Source: Chitinophagaceae bacterium (GTDB lineage: Bacteria; Bacteroidota; Bacteroidia; Chitinophagales; Chitinophagaceae). From it: 46,473 nt of DNA. The position numbers and the translations under genes are program-made. Below the pieces are notes generated by a model. It searched no databases, was not told where the DNA came from, and saw only the letters and a list, made by a program, of their open reading frames with translations. Below, piece by piece: positions 683 to 34,184 of the stretch. How positions within the stretch are numbered: position 1 is the first letter of the stretch; each line of letters begins with the position of its first letter. The DNA lies in NCBI GenBank assembly GCA_027486695.1, contig JAIXOS010000089.1, forward strand, positions 1-46,473, in the 5' to 3' direction.

Positions 683-2509
683 ATGGCCAACGAAGTATTA
701 TTAGACCCTCATTCAATCGCATCCGACGCACACTATGGTCATGATGCAGCTCATCATGATGAGCACCACCATACTGAGACCTTTATCAGTAAGTATGTAT
801 TTAGTATGGATCACAAAATGATTGCTAAACAGTTTTTGATTACTGGGATGGTATGGGCTGTTTTAGGTGGTTTGATGAGTGTTTTCTTTCGTTTACAATT
901 GGGATATCCGGATAGTACTTTCCCTTGGTTAGAGGATATTTTGGGTAAATGGGCTAAAGGAGGTCATATCACTCCCGAAGCATACTATGCATTGGTAACT
1001 ACTCACGGTACTGTACTTGTGTTTTTTGTGTTAACAGCGGGTTTAAGTGGTACGTTCGCTAATTTCCTTATTCCATTACAAATTGGTGCAAGGGATATGG
1101 CATCTCCTTTTATGAACATGCTTAGCTACTGGTTCTTTTTTATTGCAAGTATTGTGATGTTGTCTTCTTTATTCATTGAAACAGGTCCTTTCAGTGGAGG
1201 TTGGACTGCCTACCCGCCATTAAGCGCTTTAGGTTCAGCTTCTCCTGGATCTAAAACAGGTATGGACTTGTGGTTAGTTGCTATGGCTTTATTTGTGGTT
1301 TCATCATTGTTAGGTGGACTTAATTATATTGCCACTGTCTTGAATATGCGTACCAAAGGAATGAGTATGACCAGACTTCCTTTAACTATTTGGGCATTAT
1401 TTTTCACAGCTGTTTTAGGTGTATTATCTTTTCCTGTGTTGTTTTCTGGTTTCATTTTATTGATTTTTGATAGAAATTTTGGAACTAGTTTTTACCTATC
1501 TGATATTTTTGTTAATGGTGTTGGTGCTTTACCAAATGAAGGTGGTAGTGCTATTTTATACCAACACTTATTTTGGTTCTTAGGTCATCCTGAAGTATAT
1601 ATTATATTGCTACCTGCAATGGGTATGGCTAGTGAAATACTATCAACAAATTCTCGTAAGCCAATATTCGGCTACATGGCAATGGTTGGATCTATGTTTG
1701 CTATTGCTGTACTTGCATTCTTGGTTTGGGCACACCACATGTTTGTTACAGGTCTTAATCCGTTCTTAGGATCTATATTTGTATTGCTTACATTACTGAT
1801 TGCAGTACCTTCTGCTATCAAGGTTTTCAACTGGTTGACTACATTGTGGAAAGGTAACATTCGTTTTACTCCGGCAATGATGTTTGCTATTGGATTCGTA
1901 AGTTTGTTTATATCAGGAGGTTTAACTGGTATTTGGTTGGGTAATTCTGCACTTGACATTCACTTGCACGATACCTATTTTGTTATTGCACACTTTCACA
2001 TTGTTATGGGTGTAGCTAGTATGTTTGGTATGTTCGCAGGAGTTTACCACTGGTATCCTAAAATGTATGGTCGTAACCTTAATAACACGCTTGGTTATAT
2101 CCACTTTTGGGTAACTTTAGCAGGTGCCTATTTAATCTTTTGGCCTATGCATTACCAAGGGTTAGCTGGTATGCCGCGTCGTTACTACGATTTCAGTATT
2201 TGGGAAAGCTTCAAACAGTTTGGTGGCTTAAACCAGTTTATAAGTGTTGTTGTTATTTTTGTTTTTGCAGTTCAGTTATTATTCCTCTTTAATTTCTTTT
2301 ATTCTATTTGGAAAGGTAGAAAGGTAACACAGGCTAATCCTTGGGGTTCGAATACACTTGAGTGGACTACTCCTATTAAGCCTGGACATGGTAACTGGCC
2401 CGGTGAAATTCCCGAAGTATACCGTTGGGCTTACGATTATGGTAAGGATGGTAAAGAGTTCATACCTCAAACTGTTCCTGTTGGAGCCGATGAATCGACA
2501 AACCACTAA
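683..2509 (+). CDS. coxA: Cytochrome c oxidase subunit I, heme-copper oxidase type A1
   Basis: WFLGHPEVY, VWAHHMF and VIAHFH metal-ligand motifs; many TM helices; ATG at 683 preferred over the ORF-track start at 653. Confidence 0.97.
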   Translation: MANEVLLDPHSIASDAHYGHDAAHHDEHHHTETFISKYVFSMDHKMIAKQFLITGMVWAVLGGLMSVFFRLQLGYPDSTFPWLEDILGKWAKGGHITPEAYYALVTTHGTVLVFFVLTAGLSGTFANFLIPLQIGARDMASPFMNMLSYWFFFIASIVMLSSLFIETGPFSGGWTAYPPLSALGSASPGSKTGMDLWLVAMALFVVSSLLGGLNYIATVLNMRTKGMSMTRLPLTIWALFFTAVLGVLSFPVLFSGFILLIFDRNFGTSFYLSDIFVNGVGALPNEGGSAILYQHLFWFLGHPEVYIILLPAMGMASEILSTNSRKPIFGYMAMVGSMFAIAVLAFLVWAHHMFVTGLNPFLGSIFVLLTLLIAVPSAIKVFNWLTTLWKGNIRFTPAMMFAIGFVSLFISGGLTGIWLGNSALDIHLHDTYFVIAHFHIVMGVASMFGMFAGVYHWYPKMYGRNLNNTLGYIHFWVTLAGAYLIFWPMHYQGLAGMPRRYYDFSIWESFKQFGGLNQFISVVVIFVFAVQLLFLFNFFYSIWKGRKVTQANPWGSNTLEWTTPIKPGHGNWPGEIPEVYRWAYDYGKDGKEFIPQTVPVGADESTNH

Positions 2510-11189: not shown

Positions 11190-13232
11190 TTAAATGAATG
11201 TTGTAACTAAAATATCAATAAGTTTTATTCCAATAAAGGGTACAATTACGCCACCTAAACCGTAAATCAGCAAGTTACGGCGCAGCAATGCACTTGCCCC
11301 GATAGGTTTGTAGGCAACACCCCTTAATGCTAGTGGAATTAAAAATGGAATGATGATGGCATTAAAAATTACTGCCGATAAAATGGCACTTTCAGGTGAA
11401 TGTAATTTCATAATATTTAAACCCTGCAAGGCTGGTATTGAAGCAATGAACAATGCGGGAACAATGGCAAAATATTTTGCTACATCATTTGCTATGCTGA
11501 AGGTGGTAAGTGTGCCCCTTGTCATTAAAAGTTGTTTCCCAATTTCAACTATCTCAATTAGTTTGGTAGGGTCATTATCCAAGTCAACCATATTGCCTGC
11601 TTCTTTTGCAGCCTGTGTGCCGCTATTCATAGCCACGCCAACATCTGCCTGTGCCAATGCAGGGGCATCGTTGGTGCCATCGCCCATCATGGCAACAAGC
11701 CTTCCTTCACTTTGCTCTTTTTTGATATAATTCATTTTATCTTCTGGCTTCGCCTCTGCAATAAAATCGTCTACGCCTGCTTTTTCTGCAATATATTTCG
11801 CCGTTAATGGATTGTCGCCAGTTACCATTACGGTTTTAATACCCATTTTACGAAGCCTTTCAAAACGTTCGCTAATACCCGTCTTAATGATGTCCTGCAA
11901 TTCGATAACGCCAATTACTCGTTCATTTTCTGCCACAACCAGCGGTGTACCCCCATTGCTTGAAATGATTGTTACTTGTTCGGCTGTTTCAATGGGAAAT
12001 ACATTACCCGCATTTTCGCACAGTTTTATAATGGCATCTGATGCTCCTTTTCTAATACGGGTGTTTTGAAATTCAACACCCGAGCTTCTAGTTTCGGCAG
12101 TAAATTTTATAAACCGAGGATTTTCCATTTGATAACTCAATGGATTGATCCCGGCTAGTTCAATAATAGACTTTCCTTCGGGGGTTTCATCGGCCATTGA
12201 ACTCAATACGGTTGCTTTGATAAATGCTTTTTCATCAACACCATTTGCCGGATAAAATTTTGTTGCTTTTCTATTTCCAATGGTGATGGTTCCCGTTTTA
12301 TCTAACAACAATACATCAATATCGCCTGCGGTTTCTACGGCTTTGCCACTTTTGGTAATTACATTTGCCCGTAATGCCCTGTCCATACCTGCAATACCAA
12401 TGGCAGATAACAAACCGCCGATTGTTGTAGGTATTAAACAAACAAACAAAGCAATAAATGCTGAAATGGTAATAGGTGTTTGAGCATAATCGCCAAATGG
12501 TTTTAACGTTATAGTTACAATAATAAAAACCAATGTAAAACCCGCCAGCAAAATAGTTAATGCAATTTCGTTGGGTGTTTTTTGTCTTGATGCACCTTCT
12601 ACTAGGGCAATCATTTTGTCCAGAAAGCTTTCGCCTACCTCTGTTGTTACTTTTACTTTTATTTGATCGGACAACACTTTCGTGCCACCTGTTACACTGC
12701 TTTTGTCTCCCCCCGCTTCACGAATTACAGGGGCACTCTCTCCGGTAATAGCACTTTCATCAATAGTGGCAAGGCCTTCTATAATTTCACCATCAGAAGG
12801 AATAATGTCGCCCGTTTCGCATAAAAAAATATCCCCTTTTTTTAATTGGGAAGATGGAACCATTTTAACTTCATTCATATAAATTTCTCCAACGGATTGT
12901 ATCCATTTGGCGGGGGTTTCTTCCCTTGTTTTACGAAGGCTGTTAGCCTGTGCCTTACCCCTTGCTTCAGCAAGGGCTTCTGCAAAATTGGCAAATAGTA
13001 ATGTGATAAATAGAACGGCTGTTACTACTATATTGTAAGCAAGGCTGCCCTGATGTGTTTCGCCGGTTGCTATCCATATACAAACGCCGGCCATTACCAA
13101 TGTGCCAACCCAAACGGTAAACATTACTGGGTTAAGGAACATTTTTATTGGACTAAGTTTTATGAATGACTGTTTCAATGCTTCATTTACAATTGTGGCT
13201 TGAAACAATTTTTTATTACTGCTACTTTTCAT
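11190..13232 (-). CDS. kdpB: K+-transporting P-type ATPase subunit B
   Basis: TGES, DKTGT phosphorylation site, [28 protein letters not shown]. Confidence 0.98.
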
Positions 13233-13242
13233 GATTCAATAA

Positions 13243-14943
13243 TTAATAAATGGAGAAATATTCTGCAATTGGGCCTAATGTCAATGCAGGGAAAAATGAC
13301 AATGCGGCTATTATAACGATTACGGCAAACACCATCAGTCCAAAAGTTGCCGTATCCGTTTTTAAAGTACCTGCACTTTCGGGAATGTATTTTTTATTGG
13401 CAAGAATACCGGCAATTGCCACCGGGCCAATAATGGGTAAGTATCTAGCCAAAAGCATCACCATTCCGCAGGCAATATTCCAAAATGGGGTATTGTCACC
13501 CAATCCTTCAAATCCGCTGCCATTGTTTGCGCTAGAAGAGGTAAACTCGTACAGCATTTCGCTAAAGCCGTGATGCCCCGGATTGGCAAGCCAGCCTGCA
13601 TATAATGTGGGATTTTGTGCATATAAATGGCTTGCAATGGCAGTGCTTACTAAAATTAAAAAAGGGTGTAGCAATGCAATAATCATGGCAATCTTCATTT
13701 CCCTTGCTTCAATTTTTTTACCCAAAAATTCCGGCGTTCTTCCCACCATCAGGCCACTAATGAATACCGCAAGAATAATGAAGATGTAAAAATTTAAAAA
13801 GCCAACTCCTACGCCACCGAAAAAAGCATTTATCATCATGCCCAGCATAGCAAACATACCAGACAAGGGTGTTAAGCTGTCGTGCATAGCATTTACGGAG
13901 CCATTACTTGTTACGGTTGTATTGATGGCCCAGTAGGCAGATGCTGCTGAACCAAAACGTACTTCTTTGCCTTCCATGCTGCCCATTGGTTGTGTAATAC
14001 CCATTTTTGAAATGGCTGGATTACCCTTCATTTCATTGATAATTGTTGGTATTAGTAACAACAGGAAACCAATTGTCATTACGCCAAAAATTGTCCAGGC
14101 AAGTTTCTTTCGTTTCAACACAAAACCCAAAGCAAAAATCATTGCCATTGGAATTAAAGTAATAGAAATTGTTTCTATTATGTTAGTGAAGTAGTTGGGG
14201 TTTTCAAAAGGATGTGCCGAATTGGGGCCAAAAAAACCACCACCGTTTGTACCCAATTGTTTGATGGCAACAAAAGCTGCTACCGGCCCTCGGCTTACTT
14301 GTACAGTATCTCCTTGTACATTGGTAATAGTGTCTTTGCCTTCAAAAGTCATGGGGGTACCATTAAATACCAACAAGAGTGCAATTACTAGTGCTATGGG
14401 GAATAAAATTCTTGTACAACTTCTTACAAATAAAAAATAGAAATTACCCAACTTGTCCGTAGCTTTTTCCTTCATGGCAAAGAAGACAACCGCTGCAATG
14501 GCAATGCCACAACCTGCAGATATGAATTGCCAGAGCATTAAAGTGAGTTGACCTAAATACGACAATCCAGTTTCGCCTGAGTAATGTTGAAGATTTGTAT
14601 TCGTAACAAAACTTACTGCCGTATTAAAAGCCAAGTCGCCACTCATAGAGGGGTTGGCATCTGGATTTAATGGTAGCCAATGCATGTTGGTAAGAACAAA
14701 CATTGCAATCAAAAACCAAATCAAATTAATGGTCAGCAAAGCTACAAGGTGTTGCTTCCAATTCATTTCTTTGGTTGGATTGATGCCACTTAGTTTGTAA
14801 AATATATTGTCTAATGGGTTGAAAATAATATCCGACCAGTTTTTTTCATTGCTGAATATTTTGCCCATGTATTTGCCCAATGGAATGGCCATAGCAACCA
14901 AAGCCGCATACATTAAAATGATACCTGTAATTTCTGTGTTCAT
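13243..14943 (-). CDS. kdpA: K+-transporting ATPase subunit A
   Basis: FVTNTNLQHYSGE, KQLGTNGGGFF, SAHPFENP, EGKEVRFG, SSANNGSGF. Confidence 0.98.
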   Translation of the reverse strand: MNTEITGIILMYAALVAMAIPLGKYMGKIFSNEKNWSDIIFNPLDNIFYKLSGINPTKEMNWKQHLVALLTINLIWFLIAMFVLTNMHWLPLNPDANPSMSGDLAFNTAVSFVTNTNLQHYSGETGLSYLGQLTLMLWQFISAGCGIAIAAVVFFAMKEKATDKLGNFYFLFVRSCTRILFPIALVIALLLVFNGTPMTFEGKDTITNVQGDTVQVSRGPVAAFVAIKQLGTNGGGFFGPNSAHPFENPNYFTNIIETISITLIPMAMIFALGFVLKRKKLAWTIFGVMTIGFLLLLIPTIINEMKGNPAISKMGITQPMGSMEGKEVRFGSAASAYWAINTTVTSNGSVNAMHDSLTPLSGMFAMLGMMINAFFGGVGVGFLNFYIFIILAVFISGLMVGRTPEFLGKKIEAREMKIAMIIALLHPFLILVSTAIASHLYAQNPTLYAGWLANPGHHGFSEMLYEFTSSSANNGSGFEGLGDNTPFWNIACGMVMLLARYLPIIGPVAIAGILANKKYIPESAGTLKTDTATFGLMVFAVIVIIAALSFFPALTLGPIAEYFSIY

Positions 14944-14946
14944 GGT

Positions 14947-15024
14947 TTAAAATTTTTCCGGTTTTACCAATACATAACACATATACGCAAAAACGCCAAT
15001 GGCTATGATGAATAGAGTGATCAT
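14947..15024 (-). CDS. kdpF: K+-transporting ATPase subunit F (25 aa, absent from ORF track)
   Basis: Manual translation MITLFIIAIGVFAYMCYVLVKPEKF; single TM with the KdpF Y..YVL.KPEKF tail; 3 nt before kdpA start. Confidence 0.92.
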   Translation of the reverse strand: MITLFIIAIGVFAYMCYVLVKPEKF

Positions 15025-15029
15025 AATTG

Positions 15030-15113
15030 TTAGATTTTTTCGAAGAAGTTAATTGCTGAATAAAAGAGTGCAAAAAGCAGTAGTCCTGTAGCTGTTAAGA
15101 TTGTAGTAATCAT
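15030..15113 (-). CDS. Small single-TM peptide upstream of kdpF (27 aa)
   Basis: Manual translation MITTILTATGLLLFALFYSAINFFEKI; A-rich leader before ATG; stop 5 nt before kdpF start. Confidence 0.7.
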   Translation of the reverse strand: MITTILTATGLLLFALFYSAINFFEKI

Positions 15114-15246
15114 TGTTTAGTTTTTTTGGTAATTGTAAAGCCTCCTTTACTTGTTATGTGCTACACAACTGCAGAAGTAAATTGTATCGTTCTCGCATTA
15201 GGGTTGCTAATATTTCAAAAACTGATTTGTTACGATGACAAATATT

Positions 15247-15363
15247 TTAGTTATCTACAATCCTATAAATAAACCCTGCAATGATAATGGTGCCATAAAG
15301 GCAAGCTAGAAGATGCCATGATTTTAAGTTCTTGGCAATCCACCTTTTTTTTGAGTATGTCAT
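15247..15363 (-). CDS. Possible small membrane peptide (38 aa), first ORF of the kdp transcript
   Basis: Manual translation MTYSKKRWIAKNLKSWHLLACLYGTIIIAGFIYRIVDN; basic N-terminus then hydrophobic stretch; lies just downstream of the candidate sigma-54 promoter. Confidence 0.4.
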   Translation of the reverse strand: MTYSKKRWIAKNLKSWHLLACLYGTIIIAGFIYRIVDN

Positions 15364-15387
15364 TTGAAATTCTTTTGTTAGTATATG

Positions 15388-15402
15388 CCAAAAAGCAGGC
15401 CT
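15388..15402 (-). promoter_or_regulatory. Candidate sigma-54 -24/-12 promoter for the kdp operon
   Basis: Minus strand AGGCCTGCTTTTTGG vs consensus TGGCACGNNNNTTGC (GG-N10-GG instead of GC); adjacent to a sigma-54 activator gene. Confidence 0.45.
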
Positions 15403-15476
15403 TTAATTTCAGAATAGGCATAAAGCATTGATAATAAAGAGTTTACTTAATTTCTGCAGAATTTTTCAAATAAAAA

Positions 15477-15518
15477 ACCCTTTCAAATTGAAAGGGTCTA
15501 TACTATCGTTTTGATAGT
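15477..15518. promoter_or_regulatory. Tandem palindromes, candidate upstream activator sites of the NtrC-type regulator
   Basis: ACCCTTTCAAATTGAAAGGGT (centre 15487) and ACTATCGTTTTGATAGT (centre 15510); shared core CTWTC-N5-GAWAG. Confidence 0.6.
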
Positions 15519-15622
15519 GTTTGTAGCCATCAAGAGTTTAAATGGTTATTAGCTTCATTCCTGAATGACTAATTTGCTATAAAAAATTATAAAGTTAAAT
15601 TGCATCAAGTGTATTTGGATTA

Positions 15623-16987
15623 TTACTTCTCCAATCCGTAATCAGCTAGTTTCCGGTACAACGTAGTTAAAGCAATGTTCAATAAACGGGCTGTTTCTGT
15701 TTTATTGCCATTGGTATAGTTGAGTACTTTTTGAATGTGTAGTTTTTCGGCACTTGCAAGGTCAAAGGCTGATAATAGTTTTTGGGTAGTGGAAGGTTGA
15801 GTATTATTGGTCGAAAGTTGTTGCAACTCTATTGGTAAACAATTAACCGTTAGTTCTTCGCTATCCATTAATATTACGCTGCGTTCAATTACATTTTTTA
15901 ATTCGCGGATATTCCCTTTCCAATTATGTTGTTTAAGTACTTCGAAATAGGCGTTTGAAATGGAGGTTATTTTTTTATTGGACTTATTTGCAAAAAGTTG
16001 TAGAAAGTAGGCAGCCAATTCGTCAATATCAACTACTCTTTCTCTTAGTGCCGGTAGCGCAATTTGAAAAACTGCAATGCGGTAAAATAAATCTTCTCTA
16101 AAATTGGCTGCTTCAATTTCCTTTTTCAAATCCCTATTGGTAGCGGCAATAATACGCACGTTGGTTTTGGTTGTTTTACTATCGCCTACTTTAATAAATT
16201 CGCCAGTTTCCAAAACCCTTAATAGTTTGGCTTGCAGGGCTAATGGCATTTCTCCAAGCTCGTCCAAAAAAACGGTGCCTTGGTTAGCTTCTTCAAAAAT
16301 GCCCTTGGTATCTTTTATAGCGCCGGTAAATGCACCTGCTTTATGTCCGAACAATTCATTTTCTAATAAATCTTTACTAAAGGCGGAACAATTGACTGCA
16401 ACGAAATTATGTTTGCTACGGTTGCTGTTATTGTGAATGGCTTGTGCAAATACTTCTTTGCCTGTTCCTGTTTCGCCGGTAAGCAAAACGGAGGCATCTG
16501 TTACGGCTACTTTTTTTGCGGCATCAATAGCTGCTTTGATAATTTTTGATTTGCCTATAATGTTATCAAAAGAATGTTTATTGCCTAATTGTTTTTCTAA
16601 GTGTACAACTCGTTTTGCCAAAAGTACTTTTTCAGTTGCCTTATATAGTAGAGGAATTATTCTGTTATTATCATCGCCTTTTGTAATGTAATCAAAAGCG
16701 CCGTTTTTAATTGCTTGCACACCATCAGGTATATTTCCATAAGCAGTAAGCAAAATAATTTCTATGAATGGATATTTTTCTTTTATGGTTTTTGATAATT
16801 CTACGCCGCTGCCATCAGGTAATTTAACATCACAAATAACTACGTCAATATCAGCTGTTTCCAGCTTTTGCAACCCTTTTTTGGCATCTCCCGCCTGCAA
16901 TACTTCAAAACCTTCTAAACTGATGATTTTAGCAAGCAATGTCCTAATTTTTTCTTCATCGTCTATAATTAACACTTTGTGCAGCAT
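15623..16987 (-). CDS. Sigma-54-dependent NtrC-family response regulator (REC-AAA+-Fis HTH)
   Basis: IIDDEE/DVKLPD receiver, GETGTGKE, GAFTGA, FLDELGE, FREDLFYR, WKGNIRELKN, C-terminal HTH; start at MLHKV. Confidence 0.95.
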   Translation of the reverse strand: MLHKVLIIDDEEKIRTLLAKIISLEGFEVLQAGDAKKGLQKLETADIDVVICDVKLPDGSGVELSKTIKEKYPFIEIILLTAYGNIPDGVQAIKNGAFDYITKGDDNNRIIPLLYKATEKVLLAKRVVHLEKQLGNKHSFDNIIGKSKIIKAAIDAAKKVAVTDASVLLTGETGTGKEVFAQAIHNNSNRSKHNFVAVNCSAFSKDLLENELFGHKAGAFTGAIKDTKGIFEEANQGTVFLDELGEMPLALQAKLLRVLETGEFIKVGDSKTTKTNVRIIAATNRDLKKEIEAANFREDLFYRIAVFQIALPALRERVVDIDELAAYFLQLFANKSNKKITSISNAYFEVLKQHNWKGNIRELKNVIERSVILMDSEELTVNCLPIELQQLSTNNTQPSTTQKLLSAFDLASAEKLHIQKVLNYTNGNKTETARLLNIALTTLYRKLADYGLEK

Positions 16988-17049
16988 AGAAAAAAGGTTG
17001 GTAAAAGGTACATTTGATATAGTGATATTTAGTGCAATGTACAATTACT

Positions 17050-17520
17050 TTAGCCATACGAAACCGCTACATTTCTGTTAAAGCTTTCTTCGAGCGAAAT
17101 AAGTGTTTCTGTGCGTTCAATACCTTTAATTTTTTGTAGTTCGTCGTGCAGCACGTAGCGCAATTGTTGAATGTCCTTGCATACAATTTCTACGAACATA
17201 CTATAATTGCCCGTTGTATAGTTTACCCGTACTACTTGCGGTATTTGTTGCAGTTCTTTTGCTACGGTATCGTACAAAGAACTTTTTTCTAGATAAATGC
17301 CAATAAAAGCAACCACATCGTAACCCAATGCTTTTAAATCAATAGCCAACCGTCTACCTTTTACCACACCGCTTTCTTCCAGTTTTTTGATGCGTACGTG
17401 TATGGTACCTCCACTCACAAACAATTTTTTACCTAAATCGGCGTAGGATATCTCGGCATTGTTCATCATTTCGTGAATAATTTGAAAATCGAGTTTGTCA
17501 AGATTTAATTTATTGTTCAT
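17050..17520 (-). CDS. Lrp/AsnC family transcriptional regulator (AsnC-like)
   Basis: LDKLDFQII...SYADLGKKLFVSGGTIHVRIKKL HTH; YTTGNYSMF and TETLISL RAM-domain motifs that resemble E. coli AsnC; start at MNNKL. Confidence 0.92.
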   Translation of the reverse strand: MNNKLNLDKLDFQIIHEMMNNAEISYADLGKKLFVSGGTIHVRIKKLEESGVVKGRRLAIDLKALGYDVVAFIGIYLEKSSLYDTVAKELQQIPQVVRVNYTTGNYSMFVEIVCKDIQQLRYVLHDELQKIKGIERTETLISLEESFNRNVAVSYG

Positions 17521-17744
17521 TTTGCGGTCTTTTTTTAATTTATTTCTAAATAAATTTAATTTATTTAAACAAAATCTAAATTTATGAAAAAAATGTTGAA
17601 ATATTTGCAACGTACCAATATCTGTTATAATATTGCATTGTCAATTTGATTATCGGTAATTACCGAAGATAAGTAATGATTTATCAAAAAATTGACTAGT
17701 TCTTTAGATATTTTCCATCTAATGAAAATATTTGTTATCCATAC

Positions 17745-17916
17745 TGTGGGGTGATGAAATTTTTGGCAGACATGCCCTCTTGTCTCGGGGGTGAGGAATC
17801 TGGGATAAACATGATGTAGAGCCGGATAGGTAGCAATACTTATTCGACCAGGGTCGACCACTGAACTTTGCGTCAAAGCTAACCACCTCGTGGAGGTTCG
17901 ACCCCTCCCCCTACAG
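17745..17916 (+). ncRNA. tRNA-Asp(GUC)-like RNA with ~100-nt multibranched variable region
   Basis: Acceptor TGTGGGG(17745-51)/CCCTACA(17909-15) with G discriminator; D arm ATG/CAT with GG loop; anticodon stem CCCTC/GGGGG with loop TTGTCTC; T arm GGAGG-TTCGACC-CCTCC; insert 17792-17891 closed by GAGG/CCTC; no encoded CCA. Confidence 0.8.
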
Positions 17917-17942
17917 CTCTCTTTCTCTATGCTTTAGTTTTT

Positions 17943-17981
17943 GAAAGTCTTTGCAGTGTATGCTTCAAAGGCTTTCTTTTT
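17943..17981 (+). terminator. Intrinsic terminator of the tRNA-like RNA
   Basis: GAAAGTCTTTG...CAAAGGCTTTC hairpin followed by TTTTT. Confidence 0.7.
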
Positions 17982-18078: not shown

Positions 18079-18088
18079 ATTTTCAATG

Positions 18089-18162
18089 TGGGCCCACCAG
18101 GGCATGATCCTGGGACCCCCTGATTATGAGTCAGGTGCTCTAACCAACTGAGCTATAGGCCC
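18089..18162 (-). tRNA. tRNA with CAT anticodon, most likely tRNA-Ile2 (lysidine type)
   Basis: GGGCCTATAGCTCAGTTGGTTAGAGCACCTGACTCATAATCAGGGGGTCCCAGGATCATGCCCTGGTGGGCCCA folds into a full cloverleaf; G1-C72 rules out the initiator; body resembles Ile2 rather than elongator Met; no encoded CCA. Confidence 0.9.
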
Positions 18163-32272: not shown

Positions 32273-32308
32273 TCCCACAAACCAACATTGGTTTGTGGGA
32301 ATTTTTTT
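32273..32308. terminator. Terminator hairpin between convergent genes
   Basis: TCCCACAAACCAA-ca-TTGGTTTGTGGGA perfect stem followed by T run. Confidence 0.75.
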
Positions 32309-34184
32309 ATTGAAACAGCGTTGCGGCGCTTAAGTATCGCCAGTTAAAACTGTTGCCGGCGTGTGCGGCTTGTGGTACAATTTTTTGCGCTAGCACTTTC
32401 TTGTGTAAAACACCTTTTTGCACCAACAACTCTTTACTTGATTGAATCAACTCAATCATTGCCTTATGTTGCATCCATACTTGTTGTGGCGGTTCAAAGC
32501 CTATTTTATTGGGTCTCCAAACGATAGATGGCGGCAACAAATCATTACTTGCTTTTCGTAGCAACCACTTTGTAAACCCGTTGTTAAACTTATAGGCATC
32601 TGGCAGGGCAAACACAAACTCTACCAACGTATGGTTTAAAAAAGGCAACCTTACTTCGCAACCGTGTGCCATTGAATTTCGGTCGGCGTAGCGCAACAAT
32701 TCCATTAATCCAAAATGTACTGTATTATAATACAACAAATCGCTTGCTTTGTACACAACCGGCTTCATTAATGTATCAATATTAACGTGTTGCAGAAAAA
32801 AATCGGGATGAATGAAGCCTTGTTTTTGTTGCTGTGCTGCTGCATGCAATTGTAATTTTTGGGCTAGCTTATCCGGACGATACCATGCCGCAAGGTAATT
32901 TTTGATTCCCCATGTTTCTACAAACTCGTTTTTTTGAAACAAAGGCAATGCTTTTTTAAATGCGTTAAAATTGTGTTTCAACAAATACTGCAAATGCCAA
33001 TGGGTATATTTTTTATATCCACCCAATATTTCATCCGCGCCCTGACCATCTAATAAAACCTTAACCCCTTGTTGCCTAGCACATTGGTACACCAAATATT
33101 GCGTAACCACGCTACTGCTTTGTACTGGTTCTTCTTGATGATAACTTATTTTTTGCCAATGTTGTATCCAGTCGTTTACAGAGATGGGTACAATATGGTG
33201 CTTCAAATGAAACTGTTCAGCCACTGTTGTAGCAAAAGCGGTTTCATCTTTTTCAAAGCCTGGAAAAGAAGCTGTAAAGGCTGATTGGGAGCGAGGTGGT
33301 GCGCACTTGGCCATAAATGCTACAATAGCCGAACTATCGAGCCCCCCACTAAGACTAGCACCCACCGAAACATGGGAACGCAATCTTTTTTCAACCGATT
33401 GCGCTAATAAATTTTTAAACTGTGCTATAACAGATTGTTCGTTGTCAATATCATCTATCGTTAAAGCTGAACTTGCAGTAGCTAATGTATACCATTTTTT
33501 TAGCTGTATTTTTCCGGCTGCGGGTTGTATAAACAAACAATGACCGGGCGGTAAACTCAAAATGTCATTAAAAAAGGATTGTGTTTTCTTGAGCGGATTT
33601 TGGGTATAACCTAACGTAAGGTAATTGAGCACCATGGTTCCATTTAACCATTTAGGCACCTGTGCAGCCCACAACGCTTTCATTTCGCTGGCAAAAAGTA
33701 ACTGCTTAAATTTTCCTCGCTCTTGGTATTCAGCATGATAATAAAAAGGCTTTTCGCCAAAGCGATCTCTAGCTGCAAAAATTTGGTTGCTTTTTTGGTC
33801 GTAAATAACCATAGCAAACATGCCATCGAACTTATGTAAACAAGCACTTCCCCAACAATCAAAAGCTGCAAGTACCACTTCGGTATCGGATTGGGTGGTA
33901 AATTGGTAACCTAGCCCGTGCAATTCATTTTTGAGTTCGATATAATTGTAGATTTCGCCATTATACACAATTACATAATGTAAATAGTGCATGGGCTGAT
34001 TGGCCGAGCTGTTTAAGTCTACAATAGCCAATCTTTTATGACCTAAACAAACTGTATGGGCATCATTGCTCCAAACACCCTCTCCGTCGGGCCCTCGGTG
34101 CGCTAGTGCATGTATCATGCTACGCACTTTGGCAGGCTGCGCCAATGCTTCGTAAGGACTGATTATACCGGCTATACCACACAT
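32307..34184 (-). CDS. asnB: Asparagine synthase (glutamine-hydrolysing) family amidotransferase
   Basis: N-terminal MCGIAG, HRGPD, NGEIYN, RDRFGEKP, SLSGGLDSS, DGQGADE, EVRLPFL. Confidence 0.92.
   Translation of the reverse strand: MCGIAGIISPYEALAQPAKVRSMIHALAHRGPDGEGVWSNDAHTVCLGHKRLAIVDLNSSANQPMHYLHYVIVYNGEIYNYIELKNELHGLGYQFTTQSDTEVVLAAFDCWGSACLHKFDGMFAMVIYDQKSNQIFAARDRFGEKPFYYHAEYQERGKFKQLLFASEMKALWAAQVPKWLNGTMVLNYLTLGYTQNPLKKTQSFFNDILSLPPGHCLFIQPAAGKIQLKKWYTLATASSALTIDDIDNEQSVIAQFKNLLAQSVEKRLRSHVSVGASLSGGLDSSAIVAFMAKCAPPRSQSAFTASFPGFEKDETAFATTVAEQFHLKHHIVPISVNDWIQHWQKISYHQEEPVQSSSVVTQYLVYQCARQQGVKVLLDGQGADEILGGYKKYTHWHLQYLLKHNFNAFKKALPLFQKNEFVETWGIKNYLAAWYRPDKLAQKLQLHAAAQQQKQGFIHPDFFLQHVNIDTLMKPVVYKASDLLYYNTVHFGLMELLRYADRNSMAHGCEVRLPFLNHTLVEFVFALPDAYKFNNGFTKWLLRKASNDLLPPSIVWRPNKIGFEPPQQVWMQHKAMIELIQSSKELLVQKGVLHKKVLAQKIVPQAAHAGNSFNWRYLSAATLFQ

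What the first reader, a model, noticed from the sequence alone, without database searches (positions are those of the whole stretch)
17745..17916. Giant tRNA-Asp-like RNA: intact cloverleaf arms around a ~100-nt structured variable region
Seen in sequence: 7-bp acceptor TGTGGGG/CCCTACA (extendable by C17744-G17916), U8-G9, a 3-bp D stem ATG/CAT with a long GG-containing loop as in class II Leu/Ser tRNAs, a 5-bp anticodon stem with loop UU-GUC-UC, and a canonical T arm GGAGG-UUCGACC-CCUCC. The variable region (17792-17891, 100 nt) is closed by GAGG/CCTC. Inside it are TCTGG/CCAGG, a 10-bp hairpin capped by a GCAA GNRA tetraloop (17823-17846) and a CTTTG/CAAAG hairpin. A terminator follows at 17943-17981, so it looks like an independent transcript. 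Established: normal tRNA-Asp is class I with a 4-5 nt variable loop and a purine at 37; here position 37 is U. Inference: this is not a decoding tRNA but a tRNA-mimic ncRNA, and the intact stems argue against a decayed pseudogene. I cannot place it in any RNA family I know.
Basis: partly seen in the sequence, partly recalled or inferred. Interest (0 to 1): 0.92.

Follow-up and report, generated by a model that had tools for sequence, protein, structure and literature searches.

The report
Giant tRNA look-alike for making asparagine
This is a real, conserved 172-base RNA shaped like a transfer RNA with a 100-base extra arm, missed by standard tRNA and RNA-family finders; it occurs only in bacteria that keep the amidating enzyme GatCAB and an asparagine-type regulator, so it likely works off the ribosome as a reusable carrier on which aspartate is turned into asparagine.

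Summary
The RNA at 17745-17916 is real: a full tRNA frame around a 100-nt arm, unique in the genome, absent from shuffles, no Rfam or ARAGORN hit. I parsed 246 distinct homologues from Bacteroidota and their phages; all tRNA stems and the base of the arm covary. On a leucine-type body it carries published marks for aspartyl-tRNA synthetase (GUC, C38, G73), for GatCAB (U1-A72) and for exclusion from EF-Tu (G49-C65, A51-U63), while positions 33 and 37 drift. All 27 carriers among 150 sampled genomes have GatB; none of 39 GatB-less genomes has the RNA. Among 34 genomes with GlnRS, RNA and GatB agree in 33. An AsnC orthologue is in 32 of 32 carriers and usually divergent from it; E. coli-type AsnB in 0 of 32. 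Best reading (0.6): a regulated, non-decoding carrier for asparagine synthesis. Untested: charging, amidation, release. Against: extra D-loop base, AsnB-like genes in many carriers. The scan found this family before on other DNA; I found no paper on it.

The parts
17745..17916 (+). tRNA-like RNA, U1 to G73 (C74 at 17917; the rest of CCA is not encoded)
   Evidence: covered by RNA contigs
17745..17751 (+). Acceptor stem 5' strand; pairs with 17909-17915; U1-A72 and G2-C71
   Evidence: U1-A72 in 243 of 246 and 41 of 41; U1-A72 is the GatCAB determinant (PMC1635274)
17754..17773 (+). Leu-type D arm: 3-bp stem, A14 A15, G18 G19, extra A20a
   Evidence: same layout as the genome's tRNA-Leu; the model's next-best hits are tRNA-Leu
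17775..17791 (+). Anticodon arm, GUC at 17782-84, U37 at 17785, C38 at 17786
   Evidence: U35, C36, C38 in 41 of 41, G34 in 38 of 41, position 37 U/G/C, position 33 U/G/C
17793..17889 (+). Conserved base of the giant arm: 4-bp stem 17793-96/17886-89, 4-nt bulge, 3-bp stem 17801-03/17883-85, internal loop GAUAAA 17804-09 / CUAA 17879-82, long stem 17812-21/17866-75
   Evidence: helices 4, 5 and 6 (100%, 92% and 76% of cells paired, nearly all pairs with two-sided changes)
17823..17846 (+). GCAA-capped hairpin, lineage-specific part of the arm
   Evidence: gap in 63-77 of 85 aligned homologues
17849..17863 (+). Small hairpin with the conserved GG-UNGA-CCAC motif
   Evidence: motif in 201 of 246 members; helix 8
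17892..17908 (+). T arm with G49-C65 and A51-U63
   Evidence: 40 of 41 each; both pairs together in 2 of 26 ordinary tRNAs of the genome and 1 of 83 tRNA-Leu; PMC1904265 section 13
17943..17981 (+). Likely intrinsic terminator
   Evidence: hairpin plus T run downstream in 25 of 29 relatives' loci
17628..17636 (+). Likely promoter -7 box (TAATATTGC)
   Evidence: this or a like box upstream in 55 of 104 loci; Bacteroidota promoter consensus recalled
17575..17609 (+). Conserved A/T-rich element between asnC and the promoter; candidate AsnC operator plus -33 region
   Evidence: within 2 mismatches in 34 of 104 loci, 0 of 2152 other upstream regions of the genome; motif was drawn from these loci, so partly circular
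17050..17520 (-). AsnC-type regulator gene (156 aa), divergent from the RNA
   Evidence: NCBIfam AsnC best match, below its cut-off; best solved relative is E. coli AsnC, 119.7 bits against 81.4 for the next; divergent in 28 of 29 relatives and 48 of 75 genome loci

Best explanation
The RNA is a tRNA-shaped molecule with a giant extra arm that likely serves as a dedicated, non-translating carrier for making asparagine. Shown: the fold, the conserved marks, the pairing with asnC and the co-occurrence with GatCAB. Inferred steps: (1) AsnC switches the gene on when asparagine is short; (2) the precursor is trimmed and given CCA; (3) the cell's single AspRS reads GUC, C38 and G73 and loads aspartate; (4) G49-C65 with A51-U63 keeps the aspartylated RNA off EF-Tu, and the lost 33/37 rules and the arm keep it off the ribosome, where Asn on a GUC anticodon would misread Asp codons; (5) GatCAB recognises U1-A72 and amidates Asp to Asn; (6) Asn is released by hydrolysis and loaded on ordinary tRNA-Asn by AsnRS. 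Step 6 has no identified catalyst; the conserved arm may dock one or set the geometry of the AspRS-GatCAB complex. Phage copies would top up the same supply during infection.
For: Marks: G73 in 246 of 246 and U1-A72 in 243 of 246 (neither was in the search pattern); U35, C36, C38 in 41 of 41 and G34 in 38 of 41 model-found members, while 33 and 37 drift; G49-C65 and A51-U63 in 40 of 41 each against 2 of 26 and 1 of 83 control tRNAs. These match Asp identity (PMC9976931 table passage), the amidation determinant, which is independent of the anticodon (PMC1635274), and the EF-Tu block on Asp-tRNA-Asn (PMC1904265). Genomes: 27 of 27 carriers have GatB, 0 of 39 GatB-less genomes have the RNA (150 genomes); in a second sample 15 of 15 same-class carriers have GatB and 22 of 23 non-carriers lack it. 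In my 80-genome panel, 79 have AsnRS; of 34 with GlnRS, 19 have RNA and GatB, 14 have neither, 1 has GatB only; 5-6 of 6 independent pairs agree, median p 0.031. So where GatCAB is needed for neither tRNA-Gln nor tRNA-Asn it is kept almost only with the RNA. AsnC orthologue in 32 of 32 carriers, 5 of 48 others (12 of 15 independent pairs agree, none disagree). E. coli-type AsnB in 0 of 32 carriers, 5 of 14 GatB-less genomes; AsnA in 4 of 150, all non-carriers. The window's genome has GatA, GatB, GatC, AspRS, AsnRS, GlnRS and no AsnA.
Against: No biochemistry. The D loop has an extra base at 20a (and more U's here); an extra U20a cut amidation 7-fold in tRNA-Asn and much more in a tRNA-Asp body. 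Position 10 is mostly A, not the G10 Asp determinant (29 of 41). Whether AspRS and GatCAB tolerate a 100-nt arm is unknown. Long AsnB-like amidotransferases of unknown substrate are in many carriers, including this window at 32307-34184 (none in carrier G189), so the RNA need not be the only route. 84 of 111 GatB-positive genomes lack the RNA; 29 of 30 such panel genomes lack GlnRS, which explains their GatCAB, but 28 of the 30 also lack E. coli-type AsnB, so they get Asn some other way, perhaps by a relaxed AspRS acting on tRNA-Asn, as shown for Bdellovibrio (PMC4206432). AspRS anticodon-domain residues do not differ between carriers and non-carriers and GatB shows no clear carrier-specific residue. 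Three of 41 members have lost G34. The panel was chosen by me on RNA and GatB status.
Confidence: 0.6

Rival explanations
1. The RNA binds AspRS and GatCAB but is a regulator or sink, not a turning-over carrier: under AsnC control it tethers or titrates these enzymes, while asparagine is made on ordinary tRNA-Asn.
For: Same marks and the same co-occurrence as the best reading. The genome's tRNA-Asn has U1-A72 and A51-U63 and could itself be the substrate. The large conserved arm suits a scaffold. No release enzyme is linked.
Against: G73, C74 and the EF-Tu-excluding pairs are conserved, which matters mainly if the RNA is charged; GatB is lost with the RNA in GlnRS-bearing lineages, as expected of a substrate rather than a modulator.
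Confidence: 0.15
2. The RNA is charged with Asp (or converted to Asn) and donates it to a tRNA-dependent transferase for cell-envelope, lipid or protein modification, like the non-proteinogenic tRNA-Gly of Staphylococcus.
For: Exclusion from EF-Tu through pairs 49-65 and 51-63 is the known mark of such donors (PMC9976931 passage).
Against: No transferase gene recurs beside the RNA: AsnC is in 87 of 133 loci, the next family in 12; phage neighbours are packaging and nucleotide genes. It does not explain mutual exclusion with AsnA/AsnB.
Confidence: 0.1
3. The RNA is a decoy in phage-host conflict, soaking up anticodon nucleases or modification enzymes that target GUC-type loops.
For: Many viral copies (120 matches, scan stopped at its limit); 48 of 80 lie within 3.5 kb of tRNA or tmRNA genes.
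Against: In cells it sits at a stable chromosomal site with an amino-acid regulator and tracks GatCAB, which a decoy would not; the loop departs from a normal tRNA-Asp loop at 33 and 37.
Confidence: 0.06
4. The RNA does decode: Asn-charged RNA with a GUC anticodon puts Asn at Asp codons under stress, or SerRS/LeuRS charge it through the long arm as for allo-tRNAs.
For: Intact cloverleaf; allo-tRNAs with GUC anticodons and long arms exist (PMC5389517 passages); G73 plus a long arm suits SerRS.
Against: Position 37 is never A and U33 is lost in 8 of 41; arm up to 135 nt and D loop up to 33 nt; two unpaired bases before the T stem as in tRNA-Leu, not one as in the genome's tRNA-Ser; G73 is not the Leu discriminator (A73 in 79 of 83 tRNA-Leu).
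Confidence: 0.07
5. It is an intron-containing or decayed tRNA gene whose insert is removed or is junk.
For: One 77-nt member nearly without the arm exists (L346); at low stringency some contigs skip 51-84 nt of the arm.
Against: The arm's base covaries; near-identical RNA contigs run through it; the skips have unknown letters between and fit homologues with other arms; removal would still leave U37 and a Leu-type body; no intron family matches.
Confidence: 0.02

Closest known systems
tRNA-Asn as cofactor of tRNA-dependent asparagine synthesis (non-discriminating AspRS plus GatCAB; Bdellovibrio, Staphylococcus aureus, Thermus, Deinococcus; PMC4206432, PMC6523644)
   Same: U1-A72, G73, EF-Tu-excluding T stem; hosts with AsnRS, GatCAB and often GlnRS but no AsnA or E. 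coli-type AsnB.
   Different: There the carrier is the decoding tRNA-Asn and the enzyme is relaxed; here the RNA has the Asp anticodon, so any AspRS could load it, looks unable to decode, has a giant arm and has its own regulator.
Class II tRNA-Leu
   Same: 3-bp D stem, A15/U48, A20a, two unpaired bases before the T stem; best ordinary hits of the model; likely ancestor of the body.
   Different: G73 instead of A73, U1-A72, GUC loop, no purine rule at 37, arm 39-135 nt.
tRNA-Asp
   Same: G34 U35 C36, C38, G73, G2-C71.
   Different: Class II body, U1-A72 instead of G1-C72, weak instead of strong EF-Tu pairs (the genome's tRNA-Asp has G49-U65 and G51-C63), U37.
Non-proteinogenic tRNA-Gly of Staphylococcus
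   Same: tRNA kept off EF-Tu by T-stem pairs for a job outside translation.
   Different: Normal size; donates its amino acid to wall-building transferases; no linked amidotransferase.
allo-tRNAs and SelC* (PMC5389517)
   Same: Unusual cloverleaves with long arms, G73, some with GUC.
   Different: They have 8/4 or 9/3 acceptor branches and a tRNA-Sec-like D arm, occur in other phyla; this RNA is 7/5 with a Leu-type D arm.
tmRNA and bacterial Y RNAs (tRNA mimics)
   Same: tRNA-like domain with an added module; also carried by phages.
   Different: Has a real D stem and anticodon arm; the genome has a separate tmRNA; no Rfam match; no Ro60 gene among recurring neighbours.
E. coli asnC-asnA divergent pair (arrangement recalled)
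   Same: AsnC-type regulator back to back with its likely target.
   Different: The target slot holds an RNA gene, not an enzyme gene; in 11 Bacteroidota asnA/asnB loci no asnC lay within 1.5 kb.

Membership tests
Elongator tRNA (Rfam RF00005) | Scores as tRNA with Rfam or ARAGORN | tested here: not met
   (only the 77-nt member is called by ARAGORN)
Elongator tRNA (Rfam RF00005) | 7-bp acceptor, D, anticodon and T arms that covary | tested here: met
Elongator tRNA (Rfam RF00005) | U33 and purine 37 conserved; variable arm under about 25 nt | tested here: not met
tRNA-Asp identity set | G34, U35, C36, C38, G73 | tested here: met
   (G34 38 of 41, G73 40 of 41, others 41 of 41)
tRNA-Asp identity set | G10 | tested here: not met
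   A10 in 29 of 41
tRNA-Asp identity set | Aspartylated by AspRS | not testable with these tools
   needs a charging assay
Bacterial GatCAB substrate | U1-A72 | tested here: met
Bacterial GatCAB substrate | No extra base at D-loop position 20a | tested here: not met
   Leu-type loop with A20a; effect in this body unknown
Bacterial GatCAB substrate | Host encodes GatCAB | tested here: met
Bacterial GatCAB substrate | Bound Asp is amidated | not testable with these tools
   needs a transamidation assay
tRNA-Leu | A73 and a Leu anticodon | tested here: not met
   G73 in 246 of 246
allo-tRNA | 8/4 or 9/3 acceptor branch, Sec-like D arm | tested here: not met
   7/5 branch
tmRNA | Ala acceptor (G3-U70), no D stem, tag frame, Rfam match | tested here: not met
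   U3-A70 in 238 of 246; separate tmRNA on contig C434
Bacterial Y RNA | Rfam match and linkage to Ro60 | tested here: not met
   (1.5-kb flanks only)
Host AspRS of discriminating type | Lacks the His/Gly signature of non-discriminating AspRS (signature recalled) | tested here: inconclusive
   His in 1 of 80, the one genome without AsnRS; same in carriers and non-carriers; source paper not held, and the signature may not be reliable

The most novel reading that the evidence does not exclude
A tRNA-derived RNA has become a stand-alone metabolic cofactor: under an AsnC regulator it replaces asparagine synthetase by carrying aspartate from AspRS to GatCAB and releasing free asparagine, never touching the ribosome; its giant arm organises the complex or helps release, and phages carry it as an RNA-only auxiliary metabolic gene.
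Probability: 0.5. Interest if true: 0.94.

Novelty: categorically new. Interest (0 to 1): 0.86.

Why it matters
It would be an RNA that stands in for a metabolic enzyme: known tRNA-dependent amino-acid synthesis uses the decoding tRNA, and known non-translating tRNAs donate to transferases. It offers a direct answer to an open point in print, namely why some Bacteroidetes keep GatCAB although they have AsnRS and GlnRS and no asparagine synthetase (PMC4206432), and the answer can be tested with three purified parts. Whatever the mechanism, a widespread expressed RNA gene of soil and water Bacteroidota and their phages is invisible to current annotation, and metabolic models of these hosts may misjudge asparagine prototrophy.

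Tried and rejected
Rfam at gathering and E-value thresholds: nothing on the RNA. ARAGORN with introns at low threshold: noise only. Folding z-score: uninformative. GenBank phage collection by blastn: no match. AspRS signature as proof that the RNA is needed: same in carriers and non-carriers. Carrier-specific GatB residues: none clear among 28 carriers and 16 non-carriers; GatB branches are longer in carriers with GlnRS (median 0.77 against 0.54 and 0.52), which fits release from tRNA-Gln duty but is not phylogenetically corrected. RNA against GlnRS among GatB-positive genomes: not significant on independent pairs (median p 0.375). asnC next to asnA/asnB in non-carriers: 0 of 11 loci. Other members of an AsnC regulon in the genome: none at 2 mismatches. 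A partner enzyme among neighbours: none in 133 cellular or 80 viral loci. Hidden divergent members in 15 non-carriers, rescored more deeply: only tRNA-Leu, -Ser, -Tyr. One search used a wrong reading frame and was replaced. I first filed G266 as a non-carrier; its 77-nt hit proved to be a minimal member and counts were corrected. Likeness of the GAUAAA/CUAA loop to the UAA/GAN motif is recalled; a paper search did not confirm it. Literature searches for a description of this RNA found none; subscription journals and supplements were not seen.

Full report
1. Observation. The sequence at 17745-17916 forms the frame described: 7-bp acceptor, U8 G9, 3-bp D stem, 5-bp anticodon stem with loop UUGUCUC, 100-nt variable region, canonical T arm, G73 and C74; the rest of CCA is not encoded. 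ARAGORN and Rfam see only the ordinary tRNA at 18088-18162. A strict frame scan finds the element once in the window, once in the 3.87-Mb genome and never in 100 shuffled windows. The genome has its own tRNA-Asp, tRNA-Asn and tmRNA. Folding energy alone is unremarkable (z -1.30).

2. Family. DNA search found matches in 28 of 41 related genomes, 84-90% identical over the whole element within the genus, with unrelated flanks. Of 292 pattern matches, 282 parsed into a full frame, 246 distinct; the 10 dropped were cut by contig ends or were chance. Arm length is 39-135 nt. On 85 diverse members my structure gives 91.7% paired cells and two-sided changes in 45 of 52 pairs, above all 500 shuffles and all slid controls; RNAalifold finds the same core unaided. 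The arm has a fixed base (4-bp stem, 4-nt bulge, 3-bp stem, GAUAAA/CUAA loop, long stem) and a free tip, with a GG-UNGA-CCAC hairpin in 201 of 246.

3. Expression. Thirteen runs on record as RNA hold part of the stretch. In the four laid, contigs cover 17745-17917 and the neighbouring tRNA, with little or nothing on the flanks; near-identical contigs span the arm (17777-17909 with 0 differences, 17777-17916 with 2, 17764-17883 with 1). These are contigs from runs found with this stretch, so they show presence of the unspliced form in RNA libraries, not level, strand or ends, and DNA carry-over is not excluded. A promoter-like box lies at 17628-36 and a terminator-like hairpin at 17943-81.

4. 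Marks. Because the pattern fixed GTCTC, I counted the loop on 41 distinct members found by a covariance model: U35, C36, C38 in 41; G34 in 38; position 37 U 34, G 5, C 2, never A; position 33 U 33, G 5, C 3; U1-A72 and G2-C71 in 41; G73 in 40. The model was trained on pattern-found members, so some bias remains. The conserved positions are the bacterial Asp identity set except G10 (PMC9976931, passages and section 48); the free ones are those a ribosome needs (established knowledge). U1-A72 is the single determinant for amidation by bacterial GatCAB, the anticodon does not matter, and an extra base at 20a hinders it (PMC1635274, passages). G49-C65 and A51-U63 are the two pairs that keep Asp-tRNA-Asn off EF-Tu (PMC1904265, abstract and section 13); the RNA has each in 40 of 41, against both together in 2 of 26 tRNAs of the genome and 1 of 83 tRNA-Leu. 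The body is Leu-like but the discriminator is not.

5. Neighbours. The gene is divergent from an AsnC-type regulator, whose best solved relative is E. coli AsnC, in 28 of 29 relatives' loci and 48 of 75 genome loci, 0 of 79 viral loci with 600-nt flanks. No other family recurs widely. A conserved A/T-rich element sits upstream of the promoter box. The orthologue is in 32 of 32 carriers and 5 of 48 non-carriers of my panel, also where it is unlinked.

6. Co-occurrence. Phylum sample of 150: RNA in 15 of 38 same-class genomes and 1 of 112 others; within the class 15 have RNA and GatB, 22 neither, 1 GatB only. Class sample of 150 (partly overlapping; it includes one unpublished genome, G261, counted only as a GatB-positive non-carrier): 27 carriers, all among the 111 with GatB. 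I then chose 80 genomes by RNA and GatB status (32 carriers, 30 same-class non-carriers with GatB, 14 without GatB, 4 of other classes). AspRS 80 of 80, AsnRS 79, GlnRS 34: 19 with RNA and GatB, 14 with neither, 1 with GatB only; 29 of the 30 non-carriers with GatB lack GlnRS and so need GatCAB for tRNA-Gln. On an AspRS tree, RNA and GatB go together in 5-6 of 6 independent pairs among GlnRS-positive genomes (median p 0.031), RNA and AsnC in about 12 of 15 with none opposed. E. coli-type AsnB: 0 of 32 carriers, 2 of 30, 5 of 14; AsnA 4 of 150, all non-carriers. Fifteen non-carriers rescored more deeply gave only ordinary tRNAs; for the rest only 20 candidates per genome were scored, so misses are possible.

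7. Mechanism. The marks say: load Asp, avoid EF-Tu, present to GatCAB, do not decode. The genomes say: the RNA never occurs without GatCAB, keeps GatCAB alive where translation does not need it, avoids genomes with standard asparagine synthetases, and travels with an asparagine-type regulator. The simplest joint reading is a dedicated carrier for asparagine synthesis (0.6). Charging, amidation, release and AsnC control are all inferred. The idea was suggested by earlier notes of this scan, which found the family on other DNA; the genome-wide tests with GatB, GlnRS, AsnB and AsnC and the EF-Tu marks are my own checks.

8. Against. Extra D-loop base; A10; unknown fit of the arm; AsnB-like genes of unknown substrate in many carriers, one in this window; many GatB-positive non-carriers without E. 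coli-type AsnB must make or take up Asn otherwise, and a lone AspRS can be non-discriminating (PMC4206432, passages and discussion; PMC6523644, passages); no carrier-specific change in AspRS or GatB; no release enzyme; three members without G34. Rivals are a regulatory sink (0.15), a donor for a transferase (0.10), mistranslation or Ser/Leu charging (0.07), a phage-conflict decoy (0.06) and an intron or pseudogene (0.02).

9. Known relatives and novelty. It works like tRNA-Asn in the indirect pathway but is not a member of any tRNA class, of allo-tRNAs (PMC5389517, passages), tmRNA or Y RNAs (PMC4201824, search listing only). Paper searches found no description; subscription journals and supplementary tables of RNA-motif surveys were not seen and could hold one. 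PMC8007984 (passages) had nothing on it. The His/Gly AspRS signature, the E. coli asnC-asnA arrangement, the Bacteroidota promoter consensus and the UAA/GAN motif are recalled, not from calls.

10. Verdict. Real, conserved, uncatalogued RNA with a specific and testable metabolic role; interest 0.86.

Noticed in passing
window 32307-34184 (-): Stand-alone 625-aa AsnB-like amidotransferase (TIGR01536 over cut-off, E. coli-type model under cut-off); substrate unknown; bears on whether the RNA is the only asparagine route.
   Followed up: partly
L346:1501-1577 (-), genome G266: Minimal 77-nt member with almost no arm and an AUC anticodon; keeps U1-A72, U37, C38, G73. Shows the arm can be lost.
   Followed up: partly
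L292:1501-1611 and 1723-1832 (+), genome G171: Two tandem members with a UUC (Glu-type) anticodon beside asnC in a genome with GlnRS and GatB; either drift or a switch to glutamate.
   Followed up: no
L458:4102-4867, genome G160: asnC plus the RNA in a genome of another class whose genus-mate G140 has neither; likely a transfer of the two-gene unit.
   Followed up: partly
L027, L198, L221, L338, L328: Two or three tandem copies with different arms in several genomes.
   Followed up: no
L036, L037, L048, L085 and other viral loci: Phage members with a hairpin inserted in the D loop (loop up to 33 nt); many lie near terminase or portal genes, tRNA clusters and tmRNA (13 of 80 loci).
   Followed up: partly
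window 17917 to 17771, run X8: One RNA contig joins the 3' end back into the D arm; the letters after C74 read CA, which could be an added CCA end with a template switch, or an artefact.
   Followed up: no
G218, G252, G281, G308: GatB matches lie in open frames of about 1110-1120 aa in one family: a possible fusion protein.
   Followed up: no
genome G072: Same family as the window's genome but no RNA, GatCAB, AsnA or AsnB-like gene found: a predicted asparagine auxotroph.
   Followed up: partly
window 18088-18162 (-): Ordinary tRNA with CAT anticodon, convergent with the RNA; probably the lysidine tRNA-Ile (recalled).
   Followed up: no
window 11190-17044 (-): kdpA and kdpB potassium-pump genes and a sigma-54 response regulator lie downstream of asnC; not conserved beside the RNA in most loci.
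   Followed up: no
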